A program made the position numbers and the translations under genes. The notes under the pieces are model-generated. The model ran no database searches, had not been told where the DNA came from, and worked only from the letters and a program-made list of their open reading frames with translations. This document shows, in pieces, positions 45,378 to 57,070 of a stretch of DNA of 64,000 bases. This DNA is from Parcubacteria bacterium C7867-001 (GTDB lineage Bacteria; Patescibacteriota; Minisyncoccia; Phycocordibacterales; Phycocordibacteraceae). Each line of letters opens with the position of its first letter. Position 1 is the first letter of the stretch. Location: assembly GCA_001189095.1 (NCBI GenBank), contig LFCK01000004.1:5674-69673 (forward strand), in the 5' to 3' direction.

Positions 45378-45546
45378 GGAGAGGTGGCTATGAATATAGT
45401 GGGATTATATTCATCCGCGTAGACGGGAGTGTCCGAGGAGGACACGAAGTCACCGAACCGATGAAATACGGAGAGGTGGCTACGAACATGATGGGATCGT
45501 GTTCGTCCCCGAAGAGGGGAGTGTCCGAGGAGGACACGAAGTCACC
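45378..45546 (+). repeat. Two tandem ~77-nt cloverleaf-like repeats (R1 45378-45454, R2 45470-45546), each starting with the first 12 nt of tRNA-Ser (GGAGAGGTGGCT)
   Basis: Closing stem ggtggc/gtcacc plus three hairpins; R1 versus R2 differences are compensatory within the stems. Confidence 0.6.
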
Positions 45547-47214
45547 TCGATTGAGTGAAGCGAAGGAGAGGTGGCTGAGTGGTCGAAGGCACCACACTCG
45601 AAATGTGGCGTACGGGAAACTGTACCGAGAGTTCGAATCTCTCCCTCTCCGCAATACTGGTGAAGAGGTGGCGAAAGCTACCTCTTTTCCTTTATCTACT
45701 TGGGTTTTTAGCAGTTCGTAATCTTTATTCAGCTTCGGTACCCACTCAACCAATAATTGAGCCGCATCTGTGTAGAATCTCCTTATTTCAAGCCTGTTTT
45801 GCTGTAAGTTCGTAAAGATTTGTGAAAAGAGTAATCGCTTCTCATCATTGTTGGCTTTCTCATAGATTTCCCGTGCCTTGTACGCGAGTTCGTGCACAGC
45901 AACTCCTAACTGTAGGTATTCATCGTTCTTATCACCACAACGAACCAGGGCGCTTTCAAGAGCCTCTTCCTCGGTTATCAAATCTCCAATCTTTCTCTCG
46001 AAAAATTCTGCTGGAGCCTCACGATTTATCTTTGCTTCATAGAGCTTATCCTTTTGGGCGCGAACACCTTGCAGCAATCCGTTGAGACGCTTCACATCAC
46101 TTTCGCGTTCAGTAATCTGCTCACTGTGTTGGCTTCTTAAAATATCTTCAATAGCCGAAAGCACACGCTCATCTTTTGGAGCGATGCTATCAAAAATATC
46201 AATAAGCTGTAATTCAACTCTATCCTCTCGAATGCCTGTCTTTTGAGGACAGTTCTTAAAGGCGGTACTGTTATTACAATGCCCGTACCAATTACCTTTC
46301 TTTTGATACCACGTAACCATCCCACCGCATCCCTCACAGAAAATCTTGCTCTTAAATAAAGCGTTGTGCTTTTGATACTTTGGATTCTTCATCTGTCGTC
46401 TCAAGACAAGCTGCACTTTCTCAAAAACATCCCTAGCGACAAGCGGCTCGTGAGTTCCAGGGTACACTTCTCCTAGCCATCGTATTTTGCCGATATAGAA
46501 AGGGTCTTGCAGTAAGTTATAGATTCGGGATTTCAATAGCATCTTGCCGCTCGTATTGCGCAATCCAGCATCGTAAAACTCTTTTTCCAGTCGCTTGAGT
46601 GAATAATCTCCCGTTGCGTACAACTCAAACATTTTCTTTATATGAAAAGCAACAGCCTCATTAGGCGCGTGGATTTTATGTCCTTTTTCTCCCACACACT
46701 TGTAGCCAATAAGAGGCTTGGCAGGTAGTCCGCCTTGTGCGATTTTTTCCTTTTGCCCCTTCTTCACTTCTTCTGAAAGATTTGTAACGTACTTTTTCGC
46801 AAGCACAATTTCAATATCCCACCTAAACTTCTCATCAGATTTAGCATTTTTGTGAATGACAAGATTTTGTTTTACGAAATGGATTTGTCTTTCTTCGTTA
46901 GCCTCAAGCCAGTCATTGATAGCTAGAGCATCTTTAAGGTTTCTGGTAAGTCGGTCAACTTTTTCGCAGAGGATATTAGTGACTCTATTTTTCTCTGTGA
47001 ATTTAATCATCTCATCGAATACCTTGCGTTGCTTGGCTCCGCTTGCTGATTCTGCCATCGAAAATATCTTTACGACGGTCAACTTTCTTTTATCAGCATG
47101 TTCTTTAAGTAATTTTTCCTGTGAATCGAGGGAATATCCAGTTTCTTCCTGTTCTCTTGAGGAGACTCGACAGTAGAGTACAGCTTTTGGTTTTAATTCT
47201 TTGTTAGTAGTCAT
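45388..47214 (-). CDS. Large serine recombinase (resolvase domain + recombinase domain + zinc ribbon + coiled coil); the last ~90 codons run antisense through tRNA-Ser and the repeats
   Basis: N-terminal AVLYCRVSSREQ (catalytic Ser), a CEGCGG...HCNN zinc ribbon and a long coiled coil. Confidence 0.8.
   Translation of the reverse strand: MTTNKELKPKAVLYCRVSSREQEETGYSLDSQEKLLKEHADKRKLTVVKIFSMAESASGAKQRKVFDEMIKFTEKNRVTNILCEKVDRLTRNLKDALAINDWLEANEERQIHFVKQNLVIHKNAKSDEKFRWDIEIVLAKKYVTNLSEEVKKGQKEKIAQGGLPAKPLIGYKCVGEKGHKIHAPNEAVAFHIKKMFELYATGDYSLKRLEKEFYDAGLRNTSGKMLLKSRIYNLLQDPFYIGKIRWLGEVYPGTHEPLVARDVFEKVQLVLRRQMKNPKYQKHNALFKSKIFCEGCGGMVTWYQKKGNWYGHCNNSTAFKNCPQKTGIREDRVELQLIDIFDSIAPKDERVLSAIEDILRSQHSEQITERESDVKRLNGLLQGVRAQKDKLYEAKINREAPAEFFERKIGDLITEEEALESALVRCGDKNDEYLQLGVAVHELAYKAREIYEKANNDEKRLLFSQIFTNLQQNRLEIRRFYTDAAQLLVEWVPKLNKDYELLKTQVDKGKEVAFATSSPVLRRGRDSNSRYSFPYATFRVWCLRPLSHLSFASLNRGDFVSSSDTPLFGDEHDPIMFVATSPYFIGSVTSCPPRTLPSTRMNIIPLYS
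45565..45651 (+). tRNA. tRNA-Ser (anticodon CGA)
   Basis: Long variable arm; anticodon loop ctCGAaa; followed by the hairpin at 45671-45695. Confidence 0.8.
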
Positions 47215-48031: not shown

Positions 48032-49768
48032 TTACCCATCATCAGCACTAAAGGGTACGAGGGAGCAGAAGACGCTGTTTTTACCACCCTTCTTTGTGAA
48101 AAGTTGTGAATCTTTAATCATCTCTTCTATGGCTGTCTTGAATGTTGAGTGACCTGTTTTAATCCCAGTCTTTTCGACCAACTTCCATATCTCACTTTTG
48201 ATTAAGGGGGTGCCAGTGTCCTCTAATGCTAGTTGGATAGAGGTTTTCAATTCCTCCTTTTTATTTGTTCTACCTTTGCTCTGTCCTCCATATTTGAAGT
48301 AACCTTTTTCACCGTCACTGTGCAAGCGAACTACAAAAGGTTCCATTTCTTGCCCCTCTCGTAATTTGTTTTGCTGGATGGTTACACTAGCGTCATTGCC
48401 ACGTCTATCAACGGCGAGGTGACAATCCACTTGGGCAAGAATATCTGATGAGCCGCGCATATCCTGTGACGCGTTACTCCTGTCAGCTCCTTTCTTGCGA
48501 TGATGATGGATAACAATGACCGCAATGCCATGATTGGTAACTTCCTTAAAGTGCTTCATTACTTCTCTCATTTCGCTTGCTACATTTTCATCTGAATCGT
48601 GGATACAGATGAGGGAGTCGAAAATCACAAGCTCGATATTTTTGCTTTTCGCAAATTCAATAACTTTTCCTACACTCTCCTTAGTGAGCAAAAAGTCTTT
48701 TTTGGAAGCAATGAAAATAGGCAGCTCGTTATTCTGCAAAAGCAGCTTCGCTCTATCTTTCAGAATCCGTGGATGATTCTCTTCGTCAATAATCAGCACA
48801 GGGCTTTGCCTGGTCTGAAATTCGTCAAATAGCTTCTCACCGCCAGCTATCTTTAGTGCAATATCTAGAGTAATAAAAGTTTTATAAGACCTGGGTGCTC
48901 CAGAAATGATAGTGACAGCTTCGTGTGGAATCAGTCTCTCAACAAGCCATTTAGTATTTTTGTATTCAGTTACAAGTAGTTGTGAAAGCGGTACCGCATC
49001 TATGCCACGGCTAGTTTTAGGTTCGCTTTTTTCTGCTCTCTGTTTCAGCTCTCGATTGGCAATACTGTTGAAGACATTTTTTAATTCTGCATCTGGAAGA
49101 GGTGGTTTGTTGTTTTGATTCCAGCGTTGCATACCAAGCCATACCAGCTCCCAGGTATCCTCTGGAAGATAACCCAGCATTTTTCCTGCCATCTGCGCCG
49201 ATACCTCATTTCTACTTCCTTCCATTACTGGTTTTGCAATGGTTGCTTTCCAGTCAGCATCTTTTTCTTCCTCTCCGAAAGCCCAGTGCGGTAGTTCTGC
49301 AAGTTCCATTTCGCCTGGAGGGATGTTCCAAACGTATTGATTGCCAGATGAAAGTAAAGAGGGTGGCACTACCACGTATCCACCATCAGCTCTAATATCA
49401 ACATTGGGTACAATGCGCACTCGATTCTTCACTTCTCGACCAGGGTGTTTGCAAAATATGTGCCGTCCGCCGCTTGCAGTTTGAGATGCAACAGTAAGAG
49501 GCAGTGGGTAGTCAATTTTTTCTGGAGTATCTATATCAATGACAACAATTCCAGAGATAGCGCCTGTAACGATTCCCACATTCGCATCTGGGTATCTTGT
49601 GAACCACGCCTCAATCTCTTTTTTCGTGGCTCTGGTACGTTGGTAGACTTCCCACTTAATGAGAGCTTTCTTATCTTTGCCGATTGGTATAACAGACCAG
49701 CCTAAATCAGCATATTGAAGCGCGGCTATGAGGTTTTGATTTTCATTTTTCATAAAATTATTTGGCAT
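48032..49768 (-). CDS. Bifunctional PrimPol-domain primase + AAA_25/RecA-like ATPase (replicative primase-helicase of a mobile element)
   Basis: PrimPol motifs GIVVIDIDTP, GGRHIF, DIRADGGYVVVPPS; Walker A GAPRSYKT; Walker B ELVIFDS. Confidence 0.75.
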   Translation of the reverse strand: MPNNFMKNENQNLIAALQYADLGWSVIPIGKDKKALIKWEVYQRTRATKKEIEAWFTRYPDANVGIVTGAISGIVVIDIDTPEKIDYPLPLTVASQTASGGRHIFCKHPGREVKNRVRIVPNVDIRADGGYVVVPPSLLSSGNQYVWNIPPGEMELAELPHWAFGEEEKDADWKATIAKPVMEGSRNEVSAQMAGKMLGYLPEDTWELVWLGMQRWNQNNKPPLPDAELKNVFNSIANRELKQRAEKSEPKTSRGIDAVPLSQLLVTEYKNTKWLVERLIPHEAVTIISGAPRSYKTFITLDIALKIAGGEKLFDEFQTRQSPVLIIDEENHPRILKDRAKLLLQNNELPIFIASKKDFLLTKESVGKVIEFAKSKNIELVIFDSLICIHDSDENVASEMREVMKHFKEVTNHGIAVIVIHHHRKKGADRSNASQDMRGSSDILAQVDCHLAVDRRGNDASVTIQQNKLREGQEMEPFVVRLHSDGEKGYFKYGGQSKGRTNKKEELKTSIQLALEDTGTPLIKSEIWKLVEKTGIKTGHSTFKTAIEEMIKDSQLFTKKGGKNSVFCSLVPFSADDG

Positions 49769-49941: not shown

Positions 49942-50181
49942 TTATTTGAGAGCGTACAGACGATTCTTGAGCTGCTTTTGATTACTAAAGAGGCTCTGTA
50001 TCGAAACAGAGATTTCAGCACCAGCCCAATAATCGCTTACAGCTTTTTCAAATCCTTCTGCGCGGCGAAATAGAAAGTTTATTCGTTTCGCATCTGCACG
50101 CTCCAAGCCGACCAAATCAAATTGGAGAGTAAGCAAAAGGGTTGCGAGTCCCAGGTCACTAATTTTTTCTGTATCTTCCAC
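49942..50181 (-). CDS. Small hypothetical protein (79 aa), element-encoded
   Basis: ORF only. Confidence 0.3.
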   Translation of the reverse strand: MEDTEKISDLGLATLLLTLQFDLVGLERADAKRINFLFRRAEGFEKAVSDYWAGAEISVSIQSLFSNQKQLKNRLYALK

Positions 50182-50321
50182 ATAGAGATTGTCCCAATAA
50201 TCGCCGCCGTTTTTTAGTGTTTGTCAGCAATATTTCTCTTTTGAAATACACTCACAAAAACAGCCGCCATACGGCGACTAATTCGAGTTATCAACAAACG
50301 GAAGTAAATGGTAATAAAAAT

Positions 50322-51023
50322 CTACTTCTTTGGAGGGTTATGGAGCGCAATGCCTACTCTTGGCTCAATGCGAACGTAGCCCTTGATGAAATCTCCCGCT
50401 TGGCGATAAAGACCGTTATGAACAGCATTTTTGATACGCTCAATTTTCTTTTCTTTCTCCTCCAGCTTCGACTGATTATAAAGCGGCTTTTCAAGCTCGT
50501 CATTCAATTCTTCGTAAGTCATTGACCTGCTCAAGCCATCATCGCCGTAGAGGATATTTAGAACAAAATAATGAATCGAAGAATAAGTATCAAATGGAAT
50601 TTTTCTGTCGTTGCAATAAAAATCATTTCCGTGTTTTTCGATTGTGCGGATTACAGTATGGGCAGACGCTAGGGAGGCGATATGTTTTTTTAGCTTCGAT
50701 TCATCAACCTCTATCACGTAAACCTCTTCCTCTTTTCCTGCCTGGTCTCCATCATCAAATTGCGACTCGCTCCCAGTTTCTTCAAAAATCTGATGCTTTT
50801 CTTCCGCCTTCTTTATAAAAAATCCCCATCGTGCGCGGTACTCTTTGACAGCCCCCACTTTTTTCAATCGCTCCAGTGATACCTCAACTTCTTCTTTTGT
50901 AACTCCTCGGACATTGAAATCTTTTACCTTGATAGCAAGAGGGCGAACGCTCTTGGAGTCGTTCGCAACAATTTTGGCTACTATTATTTCGCTATCTTCA
51001 ATACTCATTCCCATAATAATCAT
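50322..51023 (-). CDS. Hypothetical protein, element-encoded, with an acidic central region
   Basis: 233-aa ORF divergent from the xis-like gene. Confidence 0.45.
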   Translation of the reverse strand: MIIMGMSIEDSEIIVAKIVANDSKSVRPLAIKVKDFNVRGVTKEEVEVSLERLKKVGAVKEYRARWGFFIKKAEEKHQIFEETGSESQFDDGDQAGKEEEVYVIEVDESKLKKHIASLASAHTVIRTIEKHGNDFYCNDRKIPFDTYSSIHYFVLNILYGDDGLSRSMTYEELNDELEKPLYNQSKLEEKEKKIERIKNAVHNGLYRQAGDFIKGYVRIEPRVGIALHNPPKK

Positions 51024-51091
51024 AGTCTAACAGAACTTGCCAAAACTTGCCACACACAACCAAAAGAGCTAAACTGTAAGGACATAACATT

Positions 51092-51268
51092 ATGAAACAA
51101 GAAAAGTATTTAACACTGCAAGAAGCAGCAAAAATCTTAGACGTTAGTGAGCGCTCAATGTTCCGCTACATCCATAGTGGAAGGCTTAAAGCCAGCAAGA
51201 TTGGTTCCTGGCGTATCAAAGAAAAAGACCTTGAAGATTTTATTAAAAAAAGTTCCAACCTTTCTTAG
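51092..51268 (+). CDS. Excisionase-family HTH (HTH_17/Xis-like) DNA-binding protein, 58 aa, not in the ORF track
   Basis: LTLQEAAKILDVSERSMFRYIHSGRLKASKIGSWRIKEKDLEDFI; its stop TAG is immediately followed by the PHP-ATPase start. Confidence 0.65.
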   Translation: MKQEKYLTLQEAAKILDVSERSMFRYIHSGRLKASKIGSWRIKEKDLEDFIKKSSNLS

Positions 51269-51280
51269 GTGTCTGATTTT

Positions 51281-54200
51281 ATGAGTAAATCACTTTACAA
51301 CCGAGGTTCAGAGTGGAGAAAATGGGATTTACATATTCATACCCCAGCTTCTTTTCATTGGAACGGTGGAAAGAGATTTTTCGAGATGACTGCGCCAGAA
51401 AAAGAGCAGGCATTTCAGAAAATGCTTGAGACTATAAATAATTCCGATGTTGCTGCTTTCGCAATGACTGATTATTGGACGTTTGATGGATATTTAGAAT
51501 TTAAGGATTATATAAAAAGGAAAAATCTAAAACTTAATAAGACCGTATTTCCTGGAATGGAGTTGAGAGTAGAAGCACCCGTAGACTACCGATTAAATAT
51601 CCAGGTAATTCTTTCAGACGAGCTGACTGCTCAACAACTCAAGGACTTTAAAGCAAAGTTAAGAATAGGTAGCCTTAATAGGAGTCTTTCAGATGATGCC
51701 ATAAAAGAATTCGCCCAAACTCTGGACGACAGCAAAGCAAAAACTCACGGTTTTAAATCACCTTCGACTCTTAACGACACAGAACTACTTGAACTTGGTT
51801 CTAAGACTGTAGTAGTCACAAAAGAATCTCTTTGCAGAGATGCTTTTACTGCAATTCCACCAAAGTGCGGGTACATTCTTTTACCTTATGACACATCAGA
51901 CGGCTTGGTGAAGTTGGATTGGGCTACTCACCCTCACGATGACAACTACTTTATGCAGTCCGCTCATATTTTTGAATCGCGCAATGATGAGTGTATTGAT
52001 TTGTTTTTATGCAAAGAGACACCCAAAAATAAGAGTTTTATCAAGAATTTTATTAAGACGATAGGGGGTAAACCAAAACCAGTTGTCTCTGGTAGTGATG
52101 CCCATAAAATTGAAGACTACGGAAATTATCCTAGTGGGAAAATTACTTGGATAAAAGCTGATGTTACTTTTCAGGGTTTAAGACAAGTTGTTAATGAACC
52201 TGCGGATAGAGCATATGTTGGAACTTCTCCACTTAAGCTTATTGAAGTAGCGAATAATAAATCTAAATACGTAGACTCAATTAAGATTGCACACACTTCA
52301 CCAGGCACCACGCCTGCTTGGTTTTCCAGTAAACTGCCACTAAACAGTGGTTTCGTTGCTATTATTGGTAAAAAAGGAAGCGGTAAAAGTGCACTTGCGG
52401 ACATCGTGAGTCTTTGTGGTGACAGTAAGATAAACCCAAAGGATTATTCATTTCTCACAACCCAGAAGTTTAAAAAGCGTAGCTTGGCAAAAAATTATGA
52501 GGCTAATCTCACGTGGCTTGATGCCCAAGAAATATCTAAAAACTTGGACAGCGAGGTTGAGGTTGCTACCTCTGTTGAAAGAATAAAATACCTACCGCAG
52601 CAATATGTTGAAACTATCTGTAATGAGGAAGGTGTTAGTATTTTGTTTCAGCAAGAGATTGATAAAGTAATTTTTTCTTATGTCCCAGATGAGAGCAGGC
52701 TTGGCACAAATAGCTTGGCAGAGTTGATAAAAACAAAAACAGAATCAGTGGACGGTTCTATTTCTGTGTTACGTACAGAGTTGCATAGAATTAACGAAAA
52801 AATAACTTTACACGAAGACAAAGAAGCTCCTAAGTATGAGGAATCTTTAAATAAGAAACTTGAAGAGAAGCAACGTGAACTCAAGAATCTCCCTCAGCCG
52901 AAAGTTGTTAAGAAGCCTAAGACTACTTTAAACAAAGCAACGGAAGCCAAGATTAAAAGGCTCACCGCGTCCATTACTAAGTTTGATGAACAAATAACAG
53001 TTGCAAAGCAAGAGTTAAAAGATGTTAACGGCAGACTCCATAAACTTGAGAAGATTACTGATAAAGTTACTTCTCTTGGTGGAGATGTTGAAGCATTTAT
53101 TGAAACTTTCCAAGAAGATGCAACTGGAATGGGCATTGACCTTACCAAAGTCCTAAGTCTCAAAATAAATGACGGAGTCCTTAAGACGAAGAAGACGGAG
53201 CTGTCTGCGGAAAAAGAAAAATTGGATGAGAAGCTAGAACAGAACAATCCTAAATCAACGACAAGTTTTTATATCAAGAAGGCAAAGCAGGAAGCAGAGT
53301 TGGCGAAGATTACAGCTACACTTGATGCAGACCAAAAACAATACAAGGAGTATTTGCAAGCACTCAAGGAGTATGGAGAGAAAAAGCAAGCAATTGAAGG
53401 GAAAAAGGGTGATACAAGTTTGGATACTATAATTTCCCTTGAAGAAGAAATTGATTTTGTTAAAAACAAGCTCAAGGGTTTTTTGCAGCAAGGATATAAG
53501 AAACGCGAGGAAACCCTAAAAAAAGTTTTTAAAGAGCTGGGACAAAAAATTAAGTTCTACCAAGAAATCTATACCCCAATCGTTAGTTTTATTGAAAGTG
53601 AAAAAGAAACCCAAGAAAAATCTGGTAATGTTTTAAGTTTCAGTGCGGGGCTTGTCTTTGGGCGACCCAAATTTGTTGATGACTTCTTTTCTTTTGTGAA
53701 TCAAGGCAAGGACGGAAGTTTTCAAACTGTTGCGGGTGGTCAAAAAATACTCAACGCAATTATGGATAAGTATGACCTCACTAAAGAGGACGGGGTATGT
53801 GGATTTACCGAAGACCTTTTGACTCACCTTAGAAATGACAATACTGGAACAACTCCAAAAACAAATCACATCAAGTCTCAACTCAAGAAAGACCAGACTG
53901 ACTTCTACGATTATGTATTCAACCTTGATTACCTAGATGTGAAGTACAAAATCCTTTTCAACGGGAAGGATTTGAACGCCAATGAATTTTCGCCTGGAGA
54001 GAAAGGTGCGCTACTGCTCATTTTCTATTTACTGATTGATAAGGAGAACATACCTCTAGTGATTGACCAGCCAGAAGAAAACCTTGATAACGAATCAGTC
54101 TATACATTACTTGTCCCGTACATTAAAAAAGCAAAGAGTAGACGACAAATTATTGCCGTTACTCATAACCCCAACCTTGCCGTGGTATGTGACGCGGAGC

Positions 54201-54358
54201 AGATTATCTGTGCATCAATGGATAAGAAGAAGTCGGAAGTAAAATATGTTTCTGGAAGTATTGAGGACTCGGATATTAACAAAAAAATTGTAGACATTCT
54301 GGAGGGTACGTTACCTGCCTTTACGGTAAGAGATAGAAGTTATATTAGGAGAAACTAA
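51281..54358 (+). CDS. PHP-domain phosphoesterase fused to an SMC/OLD-like ABC ATPase with a long coiled-coil insertion (alternative GTG start 51269)
   Basis: PHP motifs WDLHIHT, MTDYW, GSDAH; Walker A GKKGSGKS; coiled coil about aa 480-800; ABC signature FSPGEKG; Walker B LVIDQPEENLD; H-loop VTHNPN. Confidence 0.7.
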   Translation: MSKSLYNRGSEWRKWDLHIHTPASFHWNGGKRFFEMTAPEKEQAFQKMLETINNSDVAAFAMTDYWTFDGYLEFKDYIKRKNLKLNKTVFPGMELRVEAPVDYRLNIQVILSDELTAQQLKDFKAKLRIGSLNRSLSDDAIKEFAQTLDDSKAKTHGFKSPSTLNDTELLELGSKTVVVTKESLCRDAFTAIPPKCGYILLPYDTSDGLVKLDWATHPHDDNYFMQSAHIFESRNDECIDLFLCKETPKNKSFIKNFIKTIGGKPKPVVSGSDAHKIEDYGNYPSGKITWIKADVTFQGLRQVVNEPADRAYVGTSPLKLIEVANNKSKYVDSIKIAHTSPGTTPAWFSSKLPLNSGFVAIIGKKGSGKSALADIVSLCGDSKINPKDYSFLTTQKFKKRSLAKNYEANLTWLDAQEISKNLDSEVEVATSVERIKYLPQQYVETICNEEGVSILFQQEIDKVIFSYVPDESRLGTNSLAELIKTKTESVDGSISVLRTELHRINEKITLHEDKEAPKYEESLNKKLEEKQRELKNLPQPKVVKKPKTTLNKATEAKIKRLTASITKFDEQITVAKQELKDVNGRLHKLEKITDKVTSLGGDVEAFIETFQEDATGMGIDLTKVLSLKINDGVLKTKKTELSAEKEKLDEKLEQNNPKSTTSFYIKKAKQEAELAKITATLDADQKQYKEYLQALKEYGEKKQAIEGKKGDTSLDTIISLEEEIDFVKNKLKGFLQQGYKKREETLKKVFKELGQKIKFYQEIYTPIVSFIESEKETQEKSGNVLSFSAGLVFGRPKFVDDFFSFVNQGKDGSFQTVAGGQKILNAIMDKYDLTKEDGVCGFTEDLLTHLRNDNTGTTPKTNHIKSQLKKDQTDFYDYVFNLDYLDVKYKILFNGKDLNANEFSPGEKGALLLIFYLLIDKENIPLVIDQPEENLDNESVYTLLVPYIKKAKSRRQIIAVTHNPNLAVVCDAEQIICASMDKKKSEVKYVSGSIEDSDINKKIVDILEGTLPAFTVRDRSYIRRN

Positions 54359-54501
54359 TTTCTGAATCATAATTCTAAAGGCGGATACTCTCCAAAAGTT
54401 GTATATACTCAAGGCGATATGCCTTGTATAATTTTCAAATAAATTTTACCTATAGATATTTGAACACTTGCAAACATATAACTATGTAGTAATATGTTTG
54501 T

Positions 54502-54816
54502 ATGAGTAGAAACCAAGTAGAACTTGAAGCCAAACTATTTAAAGGCTTTGCTGACCAATCCCGCCTCTTAATACTATCCACTATTTTAGGCCAACCAAAA
54601 ACTGTAAGTGAAATTGTTGATGAAACAAAACTTTCTCAACCAAACACTTCGGCTCATTTAGCGTGTCTTTTGGAATGTGGTCTTATTCGTAACGAAAAGA
54701 AAGGACGAGAGGTTTTTTATGAAGTTTCAGGCAAAGAAGTTGTGGGTATGCTTCAACAGGCACAAAAAGTTTTGAAAAAACACTCCAAGGAGATTTATGA
54801 ATGCACAAACTACTAA
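54502..54816 (+). CDS. ArsR/SmtB-family metalloregulator
   Basis: wHTH and a Cys pair LACLLEC. Confidence 0.7.
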   Translation: MSRNQVELEAKLFKGFADQSRLLILSTILGQPKTVSEIVDETKLSQPNTSAHLACLLECGLIRNEKKGREVFYEVSGKEVVGMLQQAQKVLKKHSKEIYECTNY

Positions 54817-55439
54817 CTATGTGTAAAGAAGATAACGACAATTTAGACCTTTCCCATATAAACCCCGCATATAAGCGGGCACTATGGATAGTGGTCATAC
54901 TCAATCTAGGTTATGGAATAGCCGAAATGATTGGTGGGTTTTTAGCTAACTCTCAAGCTCTTAAAGCTGATGCTTTAGATTTCCTTGGAGACGGTTCAAT
55001 TACATTTATAGGACTGCTTGCTATAGGTTGGTCATTGAGATGGCGTGCTCGTTCTGCTCTTACCCAAGGCATATTCCTAGGAATTATGGGTCTTGGAGTA
55101 ATAACGACTACAGCGTATAAGATATTTGTGCTAAACACACCTGAAGCAGAACTTATGGGCATATTAGGAGTTATTGCTCTTGTTATAAATGTGATTTCGG
55201 CTGTCGTGCTAATTCCTCATCGCCACGGAGACGCTAATATGCGGTCAGTATGGCTTTTCAGCCGTAATGATGCCTTTGGCAATTTAGCTGTGGTTATTGC
55301 TGCAGGTATAGTTTATTGGACAAACACCTCTTGGCCAGACCTTGTAGCCGCACTTATCATCGCAGGATTATTTCTTCATTCGTCTTGGTCGATTATCAAA
55401 GACGCACGAAGAGATTTAAGTAAAATTAACAACAAATAA
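54801..55439 (+). CDS. Cation diffusion facilitator (CDF) transporter, membrane domain only (no C-terminal cytoplasmic domain)
   Basis: 6 TM helices; HRHGD and ExxxD-like motifs; overlaps the arsR stop. Confidence 0.6.
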   Translation: MHKLLTMCKEDNDNLDLSHINPAYKRALWIVVILNLGYGIAEMIGGFLANSQALKADALDFLGDGSITFIGLLAIGWSLRWRARSALTQGIFLGIMGLGVITTTAYKIFVLNTPEAELMGILGVIALVINVISAVVLIPHRHGDANMRSVWLFSRNDAFGNLAVVIAAGIVYWTNTSWPDLVAALIIAGLFLHSSWSIIKDARRDLSKINNK

Positions 55440-56200: not shown

Positions 56201-57070
56201 TTGTTTGGTGTAAGATTCTATATATATCCGTATGGAACTCCTTTCCTACACATGGACGTACTTGGCGCAGGCACCAGCAGTATGGAATTAATTGCAGGCG
56301 ATAAAGAGCTTGAAGCGCTCAATATTCAGCTCAACGATCCAACGCAGCTTGCGGCGTACAAGGGACCGCTGGATACCTACCGGCCGCACCTCCTCCCGAG
56401 GGTATTCGGATCTTTTTTGGTGTTTTGCGGCAACCTTGTGTACGGGCGCGAACCGTCCTATCTAAAGTTTCGAGCGGTTGAGATAATTGCGCGCGTGCCA
56501 TATCACTCGTGGTCATCTGCTGCTTTTACGCTCCTGACTCTGTTCTTTTCGAATGAGAAAAAAGCCTTGCGGCTGTCGAATGTTGCGCGCTACTCGCGTA
56601 TTGCTTCTGACAACGAAACCATGCATGTGGTTGTTATTTCCCAGCTTGCGAGAAAAGAAGTAAAAGCGGGTTATGTTCGGCACACCCTTGTTCCGATGCT
56701 GTTCGCCTTTTTCTACTTCTGGGCTTCCTATTGGATGTACCTTATCCGTCCGCGCTGGTCATATGAACTGAACTATCTGTTCGAATCACATGCGTTTGCG
56801 CAGTACGACAGATTCCTTGAATTGCATGACGAGGAGTTGCGACACAAAGCAGTCGAAAGCGATTTCCTCGCATGGTACGGACGTACGCCGATACATCAGT
56901 ATGACTTCTTCCGCTCGGTACGTAATGATGAGATTGTGCATCGAAATCAGTCTATTCACGACATCGACGAGGAAGCGGATCTGCGCCGCATTCGTCTCCT
57001 GAAACGCATCGCGCTTTTCGTTGTTGGGGTACTGCTGGTGCTCGTTGCCGCCGCTGTTCTGCTTGTTTGA
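56201..57070 (+). CDS. Alternative oxidase (AOX/PTOX)-like diiron carboxylate protein
   Basis: Four helix motifs matching the AOX iron-ligand motifs: AVEIIARVP, NETMHVV (NERMHL), FESHAFAQY (LEEEA..Y), RNDEIVHR (RADEAHHR). Confidence 0.6.
   Translation: MFGVRFYIYPYGTPFLHMDVLGAGTSSMELIAGDKELEALNIQLNDPTQLAAYKGPLDTYRPHLLPRVFGSFLVFCGNLVYGREPSYLKFRAVEIIARVPYHSWSSAAFTLLTLFFSNEKKALRLSNVARYSRIASDNETMHVVVISQLARKEVKAGYVRHTLVPMLFAFFYFWASYWMYLIRPRWSYELNYLFESHAFAQYDRFLELHDEELRHKAVESDFLAWYGRTPIHQYDFFRSVRNDEIVHRNQSIHDIDEEADLRRIRLLKRIALFVVGVLLVLVAAAVLLV

What the first reader, a model, noticed from the sequence alone, without database searches (positions are those of the whole stretch)
51269..54358. 1029-aa PHP phosphoesterase fused to an SMC/OLD-like ABC ATPase on a mobile element: candidate single-gene defence or DNA-processing module
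The N-terminus carries a complete PHP-domain metal-binding set (DLHIHT, MTDYW, GSDAH). The rest is an ABC-type ATPase split by a ~300-residue coiled coil: Walker A GKKGSGKS, then at the C-terminus signature SPGEKG, Walker B VIDQPEENLD and H-loop VTHNPN. That is the Rad50/SbcC/OLD/RecN architecture. A PHP nuclease fused to a Rad50-like ATPase is, in effect, a one-polypeptide SbcCD analogue in which PHP replaces the Mre11 phosphoesterase. There is no CxxC zinc hook in the coil and no anticodon-nuclease-like tail, so it is not RloC. It sits on a low-GC integrative element next to xis and a PrimPol-helicase, the usual location of anti-phage cargo. Single-gene PHP+ATPase systems (the Ppl family of Gao et al. 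2020) are the closest described analogue I can recall. This PHP + coiled-coil ABC layout in a CPR-like host may be a distinct lineage.
Basis: partly seen in the sequence, partly recalled or inferred. Interest (0 to 1): 0.85.

Follow-up and report, generated by a model that had tools for sequence, protein, structure and literature searches.

The report
TrlF-family PHP–ABC ATPase on a mobile island
The gene is real and has the predicted nuclease-plus-ATPase build, but it belongs to the large, already named TrlF family, a sister of the anti-phage protein Ppl, so it is an ordinary new member of a known but functionally untested kind of likely defence gene.

The parts
51281..54358 (+). trlF coding sequence (1025 aa plus stop). 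The mechanical ORF starts at GTG 51269; ATG 51281 is the likely start.
   Evidence: ORF list and translation. Identical 1025-aa database protein P0001. NCBIfam TrlF_fam_ATP 646.7 bits over residues 12-1025 (GTG-start numbering, as scanned) against model 1-943/944. Purifying selection: pN 0.094 against pS 0.78 versus the 83% relative.
51281..52285 (+). N-terminal PHP phosphoesterase domain (aa 1-335) with a helical insertion at about aa 115-195. HxH at 51326-51343, TDY at 51464-51478, GSDAH at 52091-52105.
52286..52714 (+). ABC ATPase N-lobe (aa 336-478). Walker A GKKGSGKS at 52367-52390; Q-loop LPQ at aa 438-440.
52715..53623 (+). Helical (coiled-coil) insert of about 300 aa (aa 479-781): helices 479-535, 552-617, 632-706 (broken) and 717-781. 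No Cys and no hinge domain.
53624..54355 (+). ABC ATPase C-lobe (aa 782-1025). Signature SPGEKG at 53990-54007, Walker B VIDQPEENLD at 54059-54088 (Gln930 sits where Rad50 has the catalytic Glu), H-loop VTHNPN at 54158-54175.
   Evidence: Pfam AAA_21 4.3e-11. Rad50 alignment. Invariant S904, G906, E907, D929, Q930, P931, E932, H962. 31% identity to Ppl over 862-1017.
51092..51268 (+). 58-aa HTH_17 (excisionase/MerR-like) gene ending 12 nt before the trlF ATG. Probable first gene of a bicistronic HTH_17-trlF unit.
   Evidence: Called gene with Pfam HTH_17. PHROGs excisionase families at 1.5e-10. 67% identical orthologue heads the HTH_17-Mod-Res-TrlF operon in L086. HTH_17 homologues head trlF-containing operons in L015, L039, L066, L076.
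51047..51075 (+). Promoter-like site upstream of HTH_17, in the divergent intergenic region.
   Evidence: Consensus scan TTGCCA-17-TAAACT. Weak evidence: the number of such sites equals the shuffle expectation.
54410..54426 (+). Terminator-like hairpin with a T-rich tail, 52 nt after the trlF stop.
   Evidence: 9 terminator-like sites against 3.0 expected in shuffles.
45388..47214 (-). Large serine recombinase of the integrative element. Its ORF's 3' end overlaps tRNA-Ser antisense at the left junction.
   Evidence: Pfam Resolvase 2.1e-20, Recombinase 1e-10, Zn_ribbon_recom. tRNA positions. GC drop at about 45.6 kb.
48032..49768 (-). PrimPol + PriCT_1 + AAA_25 replication protein of the element.
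   Evidence: Pfam 4.2e-34, 4.2e-9 and 1.7e-27.
49942..51023 (-). Element backbone genes: DUF5659 (49942-50181) and a 233-aa protein of unknown function (50322-51023), divergent from HTH_17-trlF.
   Evidence: 56% and 52% identical to the corresponding genes of L086, which carries the same backbone; L089 shows the same backbone gene set (DUF5659 and a ~240-aa protein).
54502..55439 (+). ArsR/SmtB regulator (54502-54816) and CDF cation-efflux gene (54801-55439): further low-GC cargo downstream of trlF, not part of the TrlF module.
   Evidence: GC stays at 0.35-0.45 up to about 55.9 kb.

Best explanation
The gene encodes a TrlF-family protein: a PHP-fold metal-dependent phosphoesterase fused to an SMC/Rad50-class ABC ATPase whose two head lobes are separated by a helical arm of about 300 aa. 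It is a full-length sister of the single-gene anti-phage protein Ppl. Here it is cargo of a roughly 10.5-kb serine-recombinase/PrimPol integrative element inserted beside tRNA-Ser in a Parcubacteria genome, and it is probably co-transcribed with a small HTH_17 gene. It most likely acts as a stand-alone nucleic-acid-targeting defence (or inter-element conflict) module. Two heads would dimerise around ATP, as in SMC, Rad50, JetC or LmuB. The helical arms and heads would sense or clamp foreign DNA, and that would license the PHP domain to cut it. The invariant Gln at the catalytic-Glu position suggests a slow, switch-like ATPase. Shown here: domain folds, motif conservation, family membership, homology to Ppl, mobile and defence-island context, purifying selection. 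Inferred: nuclease activity, DNA (not RNA) as the target, dimerisation, and the defence phenotype itself.
Against: No TrlF-family protein has a demonstrated anti-phage or nuclease activity. In the founding Photorhabdus TRL operon all temperature-tolerance mutations mapped to trlG and none to trlF. The PADLOC and NCBIfam Ppl models are matched far below threshold and mainly at the C-terminus. Three of nine canonical PHP ligand positions are substituted in this protein (Tyr65, Gln108, no mid-domain His), so catalysis is not assured. The nearest PHP structures include an RNase (RNase AM), and a Ro60-like phage protein counters Ppl, so the substrate could be RNA. 47 of 74 loci show no recurrent defence partner under my crude neighbour clustering. 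In this window the only cargo neighbours are metal-resistance genes.
Confidence: 0.62

Rival explanations
1. TrlF is primarily an accessory of type III restriction-modification. It either finishes off DNA after Res cleavage or acts as a PrrC-like guard that fires when the R-M enzyme is inhibited. On this view the copy in this window is an orphan left after loss of Mod-Res, with reduced or altered function.
For: Mod and/or Res lie within four genes in 22 of 74 diverse loci, in two different gene orders, often with overlapping or abutting reading frames. Relatives at 71-72% identity on sister elements have (HTH_17)-Mod-Res-TrlF, and the window has HTH_17 directly abutting trlF with no Mod/Res remnant. 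Established precedent (my knowledge): the ABC-ATPase anticodon nuclease PrrC is embedded in, and controlled by, a type I R-M locus.
Against: Most loci (47 of 74), many plasmids and the Photorhabdus operon lack R-M neighbours. The sister Ppl is described as a single-gene system. The orphan copy is under purifying selection. All Res subunits next to trlF keep their own PD-(D/E)xK motif, so TrlF is not needed as their nuclease.
Confidence: 0.2
2. TrlF is an element-maintenance or growth-arrest factor (an addiction or stress-triggered toxin, or an SMC-like partition aid) that benefits the plasmid or integrative element and does not defend the host against phage.
For: The founding TRL operon causes growth arrest at 36 C. 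The TrlF and Ppl genes on two E. coli plasmids lie next to parM or stability genes. Some records call relatives 'chromosome segregation protein SMC'. The gene here rides on a mobile element.
Against: The TRL phenotype maps to trlG, not trlF. There is no kleisin, hinge or ParB-type partner. The recurring neighbours are restriction and abortive-infection genes, not partition genes. A conserved PHP catalytic core is not expected for a purely structural SMC-like role.
Confidence: 0.1
3. TrlF is a housekeeping double-strand-break processing enzyme, a one-polypeptide SbcCD/Mre11-Rad50 substitute for a reduced CPR genome.
For: Rad50-like head and helical arm. PHP domains act as exonucleases in PolX and PolC (and my knowledge). 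The database name is 'ATPase involved in DNA repair'.
Against: It lies on a low-GC mobile island. It is patchy across phyla and common on plasmids. No repair genes recur nearby. There is no zinc hook. Neighbourhoods differ even among relatives of 63-83% identity.
Confidence: 0.03

Closest known systems
TrlF family AAA-like ATPase (NCBIfam NF045780), named after trlF of the Photorhabdus laumondii temperature-restriction locus trlR-trlF-trlG (PMC7554251)
   Same: Full-length match far above the curated cutoff. Same PHP + ABC + helical-insert layout, and a small upstream regulator-like gene. PGAP annotates homologues of 26-36% identity under this name.
   Different: No trlG (Schlafen/AlbA_2 + HATPase_c_4) partner anywhere in the window. 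The host is a Parcubacteria bacterium and the gene rides on a serine-recombinase element. This clade has Gln108 where most members have His. The family has no tested molecular function.
Ppl, the single-gene anti-phage system of Gao et al. 2020 (NCBIfam NF042955, PADLOC PDLC02208)
   Same: Same domain order. Collinear pairwise homology over the PHP-plus-Walker A region (24%) and the C-lobe (31%). Shared GS.W.K.D.H.HTPAS, SDAH and DQPE(D/E).LD motifs. Mobile-element location.
   Different: Fails both Ppl models: 95.7 bits against a cutoff of 1000, and 79 bits with the best stretch in the C-terminal part for PADLOC. About 135 aa longer (1025 against 891 aa). The alignment shows Ppl gapped across part of the PHP helical region (about aa 130-175). 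Ppl keeps the canonical 'SDH' His where TrlF has Tyr65.
SMC-like defence ATPases coupled to nucleases: Wadjet JetC (+JetD) and Lamassu LmuB (+LmuA)
   Same: Top Foldseek neighbours of the head-plus-arm part. Same concept of an SMC-like DNA sensor paired with a nuclease effector.
   Different: In those systems the nuclease is a separate protein of a different fold, and kleisin-like or other subunits are required. TrlF carries a PHP domain in cis and has no recurrent kleisin-like partner.
SbcCD / Mre11-Rad50
   Same: ABC head split by a long helical insert and paired with a metal-dependent phosphoesterase. Sequence and fold similarity of the head.
   Different: No CxxC zinc hook. The phosphoesterase is a PHP fold, not a calcineurin-like Mre11 fold, and it is fused. 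Gln replaces the catalytic Glu. The context is mobile and defence-linked.
OLD / Gabija GajA / PARIS AriA / Septu PtuA (AAA_15/AAA_21-type defence ABC ATPases) and PrrC/RloC
   Same: Pfam AAA_21 hit on the C-lobe. Weak PADLOC hits to AriA, HEC-01A and mad3. Defence-island setting. PrrC is likewise embedded in an R-M locus.
   Different: No TOPRIM, HNH or anticodon-nuclease domain. The insert is much longer. All hits are far below family level.

Membership tests
TrlF family (NCBIfam NF045780) | Whole-protein score at or above the curated cutoff (350 bits) with end-to-end model coverage | tested here: met
   646.7 bits; protein 12-1025 (GTG-start numbering) against model 1-943/944. N-terminal and middle fragments each also hit only this model strongly.
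TrlF family (NCBIfam NF045780) | N-terminal PHP-type phosphoesterase domain | tested here: met
TrlF family (NCBIfam NF045780) | ABC-type ATPase head with Walker A, Q-loop, signature, Walker B and H-loop | tested here: met
TrlF family (NCBIfam NF045780) | Operon with trlG (AlbA_2 + HATPase_c_4) and trlR, as in the founding TRL locus | tested here: not met
   No TrlG-like sequence in the 64-kb window. TrlG-like neighbours occur in only 3 of 74 loci, so this is not a family-wide feature.
Ppl (Gao et al. 2020) | Match to the Ppl HMMs at family level | tested here: not met
   NCBIfam 95.7 bits against a cutoff of 1000. PADLOC 79 bits, best stretch covering model positions 742-888 of 894.
Ppl (Gao et al. 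2020) | PHP + ABC ATPase in one polypeptide, homologous over both halves | tested here: met
   BLASTP against an annotated Ppl: residues 9-378 at E 2e-8 and 862-1017 at E 6e-15, collinear. Alignment A2.
Ppl (Gao et al. 2020) | Single gene sufficient for anti-phage protection | not testable with these tools
   Needs a heterologous expression and plaque assay.
SbcCD / Mre11-Rad50 | CxxC zinc hook at the coiled-coil apex | tested here: not met
   No Cys between residues 479 and 781.
SbcCD / Mre11-Rad50 | Mre11/SbcD calcineurin-like phosphoesterase partner | tested here: not met
   The phosphoesterase is a fused PHP fold. No SbcD-type gene is adjacent.
SMC / MukB / JetC | Hinge dimerisation domain and a kleisin partner | tested here: not met
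   Only about 14 non-helical residues (618-631) lie at the middle of the insert. No recurrent kleisin-like neighbour.
OLD / GajA | C-terminal TOPRIM nuclease domain | tested here: not met
RloC / PrrC | C-terminal anticodon-nuclease domain | tested here: not met
   No sequence lies beyond the ABC C-lobe, and there is no PrrC/RloC hit in PADLOC.

The most novel reading that the evidence does not exclude
TrlF is a widespread, so far unrecognised effector that is functionally coupled to type III restriction-modification and SNF2-helicase modules. For example, it could be a guard that fires when restriction is blocked, or a processive destroyer of restricted DNA. Under this reading its naturally 'EQ-locked' ABC head (invariant Gln at the catalytic-Glu position, shared with Ppl) works as an ATP-binding switch and not as a motor. 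The Parcubacteria copy would then be a recently uncoupled orphan showing that the module can be shed from, or added to, an R-M operon behind the same HTH_17 leader gene.
Probability: 0.2. Interest if true: 0.55.

Novelty: new member of a known kind. Interest (0 to 1): 0.3.

Why it matters
The gene itself adds only another member, from a CPR host, to a family that NCBI already names and annotates. The wider point is that this family is very common (more than 1,600 clusters at 50% identity, and many conjugative plasmids of Enterobacteriaceae) yet has no tested function. PADLOC-DB v2.0.0 has no model that matches it at family level. It is repeatedly wired into type III R-M operons. If TrlF is shown to defend like its sister Ppl, a large block of 'AAA-like ATPase' annotations would become interpretable. 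The comparison of sister elements with and without Mod-Res would also give a natural experiment on how defence operons gain and lose modules.

Tried and rejected

2. Sequence and profile searches of the PDB found only Rad50/SMC head matches and nothing for the N-terminus.

3. I asked whether a small TrlR-like gene is universally present upstream of trlF. The small ORFs found upstream in 38 loci are unrelated and mostly look spurious. HTH_17 leaders occur in only about 6 of 74 loci.

4. I asked whether Mod/Res remnants or any other recurrent partner are hidden in the window. There are none.

5. I tested the idea that TrlF supplies the nuclease for nuclease-less Res subunits. It is rejected, because all seven Res proteins examined keep a PD...(D/E)xK motif, although Pfam's RE_endonuc model misses most of them.

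6. I looked for direct repeats marking the island ends and found none convincing, as expected for a serine recombinase. The right border is placed only by GC, at about 55.9-56.2 kb.

7. I looked for mechanistic literature on TrlF or Ppl. Only the Photorhabdus TRL paper and statements that Ppl is uncharacterised turned up. Krishnan et al. 2020 and Gao et al. 2020 are not in the held library.

8. Phage genomes hold only six partial matches (the widest covers 48% of the query).

9. The 3-D arrangement of the four long helices (one long antiparallel arm, or a folded bundle) could not be read because model coordinates are not exposed.
Full report
OBSERVATION

The identical database protein is P0001, from 'Parcubacteria bacterium C7867-001', and it is 1025 aa. 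Homologues align from that Met. An AGGTG lies 9 nt upstream of ATG 51281, while the GTG directly abuts the stop codon of the preceding gene.

Every quoted motif is present:
- DLHIHT at 16-21
- MTDYW at 62-66
- GSDAH at 271-275
- Walker A GKKGSGKS at 363-370
- signature SPGEKG at 904-909
- Walker B VIDQPEENLD at 927-936
- H-loop VTHNPN at 960-965

In an alignment of 44 homologues at 41-83% identity, H18, H20, D64, E94, D273 and all ABC motifs are invariant, and H275 is present in 43 of 44. The motifs are therefore under selection and are not chance strings. The gene is intact and constrained: pN is 0.094 against a saturated pS of 0.78 versus the 83% relative.

WHAT THE PROTEIN IS

AlphaFold2 with that alignment gives a confident model (mean pLDDT 87.3, pTM 0.70).

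Foldseek over all PDB chains agrees. It places the defence SMC-like ATPases JetC (Wadjet) and LmuB (Lamassu) among the best matches for the head plus arm. No solved chain covers both halves.

Between the two head lobes lie four long helices: 479-535, 552-617, 632-706 (broken) and 717-781. This stretch has no Cys and only about 14 non-helical residues at its midpoint, so it has neither a zinc hook nor a hinge. I could not read the 3-D arrangement of these helices.

Pfam alone does not detect the PHP domain here. It does so in 4 of 44 relatives, with a best E-value of 7.2e-10.

The PHP site is not 'complete'. This rests on my own mapping of the alignment onto the nine canonical PHP ligands:
- Tyr65 replaces a His in 40 of 44 members.
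- Residue 108 is Gln in this clade (15 of 44) and His elsewhere (25 of 44).
- A third mid-domain His is not conserved.

A second unusual, family-wide feature is Gln930. In the Rad50 alignment it occupies the position of the catalytic Glu. It is invariant in TrlF and also present in Ppl. It is thus a trait of the superfamily and not decay. It hints at slow, switch-like ATP turnover (inference).

FAMILY

The protein scores 646.7 bits, end to end, against NCBIfam NF045780 'TrlF family AAA-like ATPase', whose cutoff is 350. The sister models score far below their cutoffs: Spaf_1101 at 121.6 against 475, and Ppl at 95.7 against 1000. PADLOC's Ppl model reaches 79 bits with its best stretch in the C-terminal part.

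The name comes from the Photorhabdus laumondii temperature-restriction locus trlR-trlF-trlG. There trlF was 'annotated as a histidinol phosphatase', and all temperature-tolerant mutations fell in trlG and none in trlF (PMC7554251). The family is therefore named but functionally untested.

A direct BLASTP against a PGAP-annotated Ppl from E. coli plasmid p3575-NDM-5 gives two collinear segments:
- residues 9-378 at 24% identity, E 2e-8
- residues 862-1017 at 31% identity, E 6e-15

TrlF and Ppl are therefore full-length homologues with the same architecture. Ppl is listed among ABC-ATPase defence systems. [quoted passage not shown] PHP domain', countered by a Ro60-like phage protein.

The family is large:
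- 1,621 clusters at 50% identity at E <= 1e-30
- at least 452 confirmed loci in species-representative genomes, from Patescibacteria, Omnitrophota, Acidobacteriota, Verrucomicrobiota, Bdellovibrionota, Chloroflexota, Planctomycetota, many Proteobacteria and one Bathyarchaeia
- 78 plasmids with full-length copies, most already labelled 'TrlF family AAA-like ATPase'
- 1,134 plasmids with the TrlF/Ppl-type C-terminal domain, mostly conjugative plasmids of Enterobacteriaceae
- only partial matches in phage genomes (six records; the widest covers 48% of the query)

SURROUNDINGS IN THE WINDOW

The gene lies in a low-GC block (0.35-0.46 against about 0.54) running from about 45.6 to about 56 kb. It begins next to tRNA-Glu and tRNA-Ser.

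The block encodes:
- a large serine recombinase (45388-47214, - strand)
- a PrimPol/PriCT_1/AAA_25 replication protein (48032-49768, - strand)
- DUF5659 and a 233-aa protein of unknown function
- then, divergently, a 58-aa HTH_17 gene (51092-51268) ending 12 nt before trlF
- trlF itself
- an ArsR regulator and a CDF efflux gene

A promoter-like site precedes HTH_17, and a terminator-like hairpin follows trlF by 52 nt (weak evidence).

RELATED LOCI

I called ORFs in 74 non-redundant homologous loci, clustered the four neighbours on each side, and annotated the cluster representatives with Pfam and PADLOC.
- 27 loci have recurrent partners, and 22 of these carry a type III methyltransferase (PADLOC MTase_III, 724 bits).
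- 20 carry a type III Res (REase_III, 658-813 bits).
- 15 carry a DrmD-like SNF2 helicase (683 bits).
- 9 carry DUF2130, always immediately upstream of trlF.
- 6 carry an AIPR/AbiU-like protein.
- 6 carry a YhcG PDDEXK protein (PDC-S02, 433 bits).
- 3 carry a TrlG-like Schlafen/AlbA_2 protein.

Two gene orders recur. SNF2-TrlF-(AIPR)-Mod-(YhcG)-Res occurs in Proteobacteria. Mod-Res-TrlF occurs in Patescibacteria, Omnitrophota and Motilimonas. Reading frames often abut or overlap. The other 47 loci show no recurrent partner.

The closest relatives are the most telling:
- P0007 (71% identical) sits in HTH_17-Mod-Res-TrlF-PeptidaseS49-DUF2726 on an element with the same backbone as the window's. 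HTH_17 is 67% identical, the 233/225-aa protein 52%, and DUF5659 56%.
- P0009 (71%) repeats that arrangement.
- P0003 (72%) has Mod-Res-TrlF beside another serine recombinase.
- P0002 (83%) follows a 1516-aa Mokosh/Hhe-like SF1 helicase.
- P0012 (63%) is solitary among metabolic genes.

In the window, HTH_17 abuts trlF. There is no Mod, Res or other partner anywhere in the 64 kb. HTH_17 homologues also head trlF-containing operons in Pacebacteria, Thauera, Accumulibacter and Variovorax. HTH_17 may therefore be an operon leader or regulator and not an excision factor.

MECHANISM

The best-supported reading is a stand-alone, Ppl-like nucleic-acid-targeting defence or inter-element conflict module. 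It would use ATP-driven head engagement as in SMC, Rad50, JetC or LmuB. The helical arms would sense or clamp the substrate, and the fused PHP phosphoesterase would cut it.

The folds, motif conservation, family membership, homology to Ppl and the mobile, defence-island context are shown. Nuclease activity, the substrate (DNA, or RNA given that RNase AM is a close structural neighbour and a Ro60-like protein counters Ppl), dimerisation and the phenotype are all inferred.

The main rival is that TrlF is functionally tied to type III R-M, as a post-restriction degrader or a PrrC-like guard, and that this copy is an orphan. The sub-idea that TrlF replaces a missing Res nuclease is rejected. All seven Res proteins examined keep a 'YPDW/F ... 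hhhVE/DxK' PD-(D/E)xK motif.

A housekeeping SbcCD-like repair role is very unlikely given the mobile, patchy and variable context. An element-maintenance or growth-arrest role cannot be excluded, since the TRL operon arrests growth at 36 C and the plasmid copies lie near parM. It fits the recurrent restriction and abortive-infection neighbours less well.

NOVELTY AND VERDICT

The suggestion of a distinct lineage is not: this is a typical member of a named, widely annotated family. I rate it a new member of a known kind, with interest about 0.3.

Three points deserve follow-up beyond this gene:
- the strong, apparently undescribed embedding of TrlF in type III R-M/SNF2 operons
- the natural comparison of sister elements with and without Mod-Res
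- the invariant Gln at the catalytic-Glu position, shared with Ppl

Noticed in passing
window 45378-45454 and 45470-45546 (+): Two tandem 77-nt repeats (86% identical) lie between tRNA-Glu and tRNA-Ser, spaced like tRNA genes and sharing the first 12 nt of tRNA-Ser. Each folds into a closed three-arm junction (MFE -33 and -45.3 kcal/mol, z -4.4 and -6.5), with compensatory differences in the long arm between the copies. There is no Rfam match and ARAGORN does not call them.
   Followed up: partly
window 45388-45652: The last 90 or so codons of the serine-recombinase ORF (- strand) overlap tRNA-Ser(cga) and the two tRNA-like repeats antisense, exactly where GC drops. The ORF seems to run across the element-host junction into host sequence.
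   Followed up: no
window 54059-54088 (Walker B, Gln930); also L094 2679-5351 (Ppl): The residue aligned with the catalytic Glu of Rad50 is an invariant Gln ('DQPE') in all TrlF proteins examined and in Ppl. This is the natural equivalent of the hydrolysis-blocking E-to-Q mutation used experimentally in ABC ATPases.
   Followed up: partly
window 54502-55439: An ArsR/SmtB metalloregulator and a CDF cation-efflux gene overlap by 16 nt and share the island's low GC. This is metal-resistance cargo on the same element as trlF.
   Followed up: no
window 56201-57070: An ORF with a Pfam alternative-oxidase (AOX) hit (9.9e-9) lies just outside the island in a Parcubacteria genome, a lineage generally thought to lack respiratory chains.
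   Followed up: no
L086 11078-17448 (and L087, L089): Downstream of trlF, the sister element carries Peptidase_S49 + DUF2726, an HNH endonuclease with a Dcm-type methylase, a second serine recombinase and an SRA/PvuRts1I-like protein. Together these form a compact defence island.
   Followed up: no
L030, L031, L036, L037, L042, L048, L052, L057, L061 (gene directly upstream of trlF): A DUF2130 protein of about 430 aa is always the immediate upstream, same-strand neighbour of trlF in 9 of 74 loci, with or without R-M genes. It may be a dedicated partner of one TrlF subclade.
   Followed up: partly
L094 and L095 (E. coli plasmids p3575-NDM-5 and pEC404/03-2); plasmid collection: The TrlF/Ppl-type C-terminal domain occurs on 1,134 plasmids, mostly conjugative plasmids of Escherichia and Klebsiella. 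In the two cases inspected, the gene lies within a few kb of parM or partition genes.
   Followed up: partly
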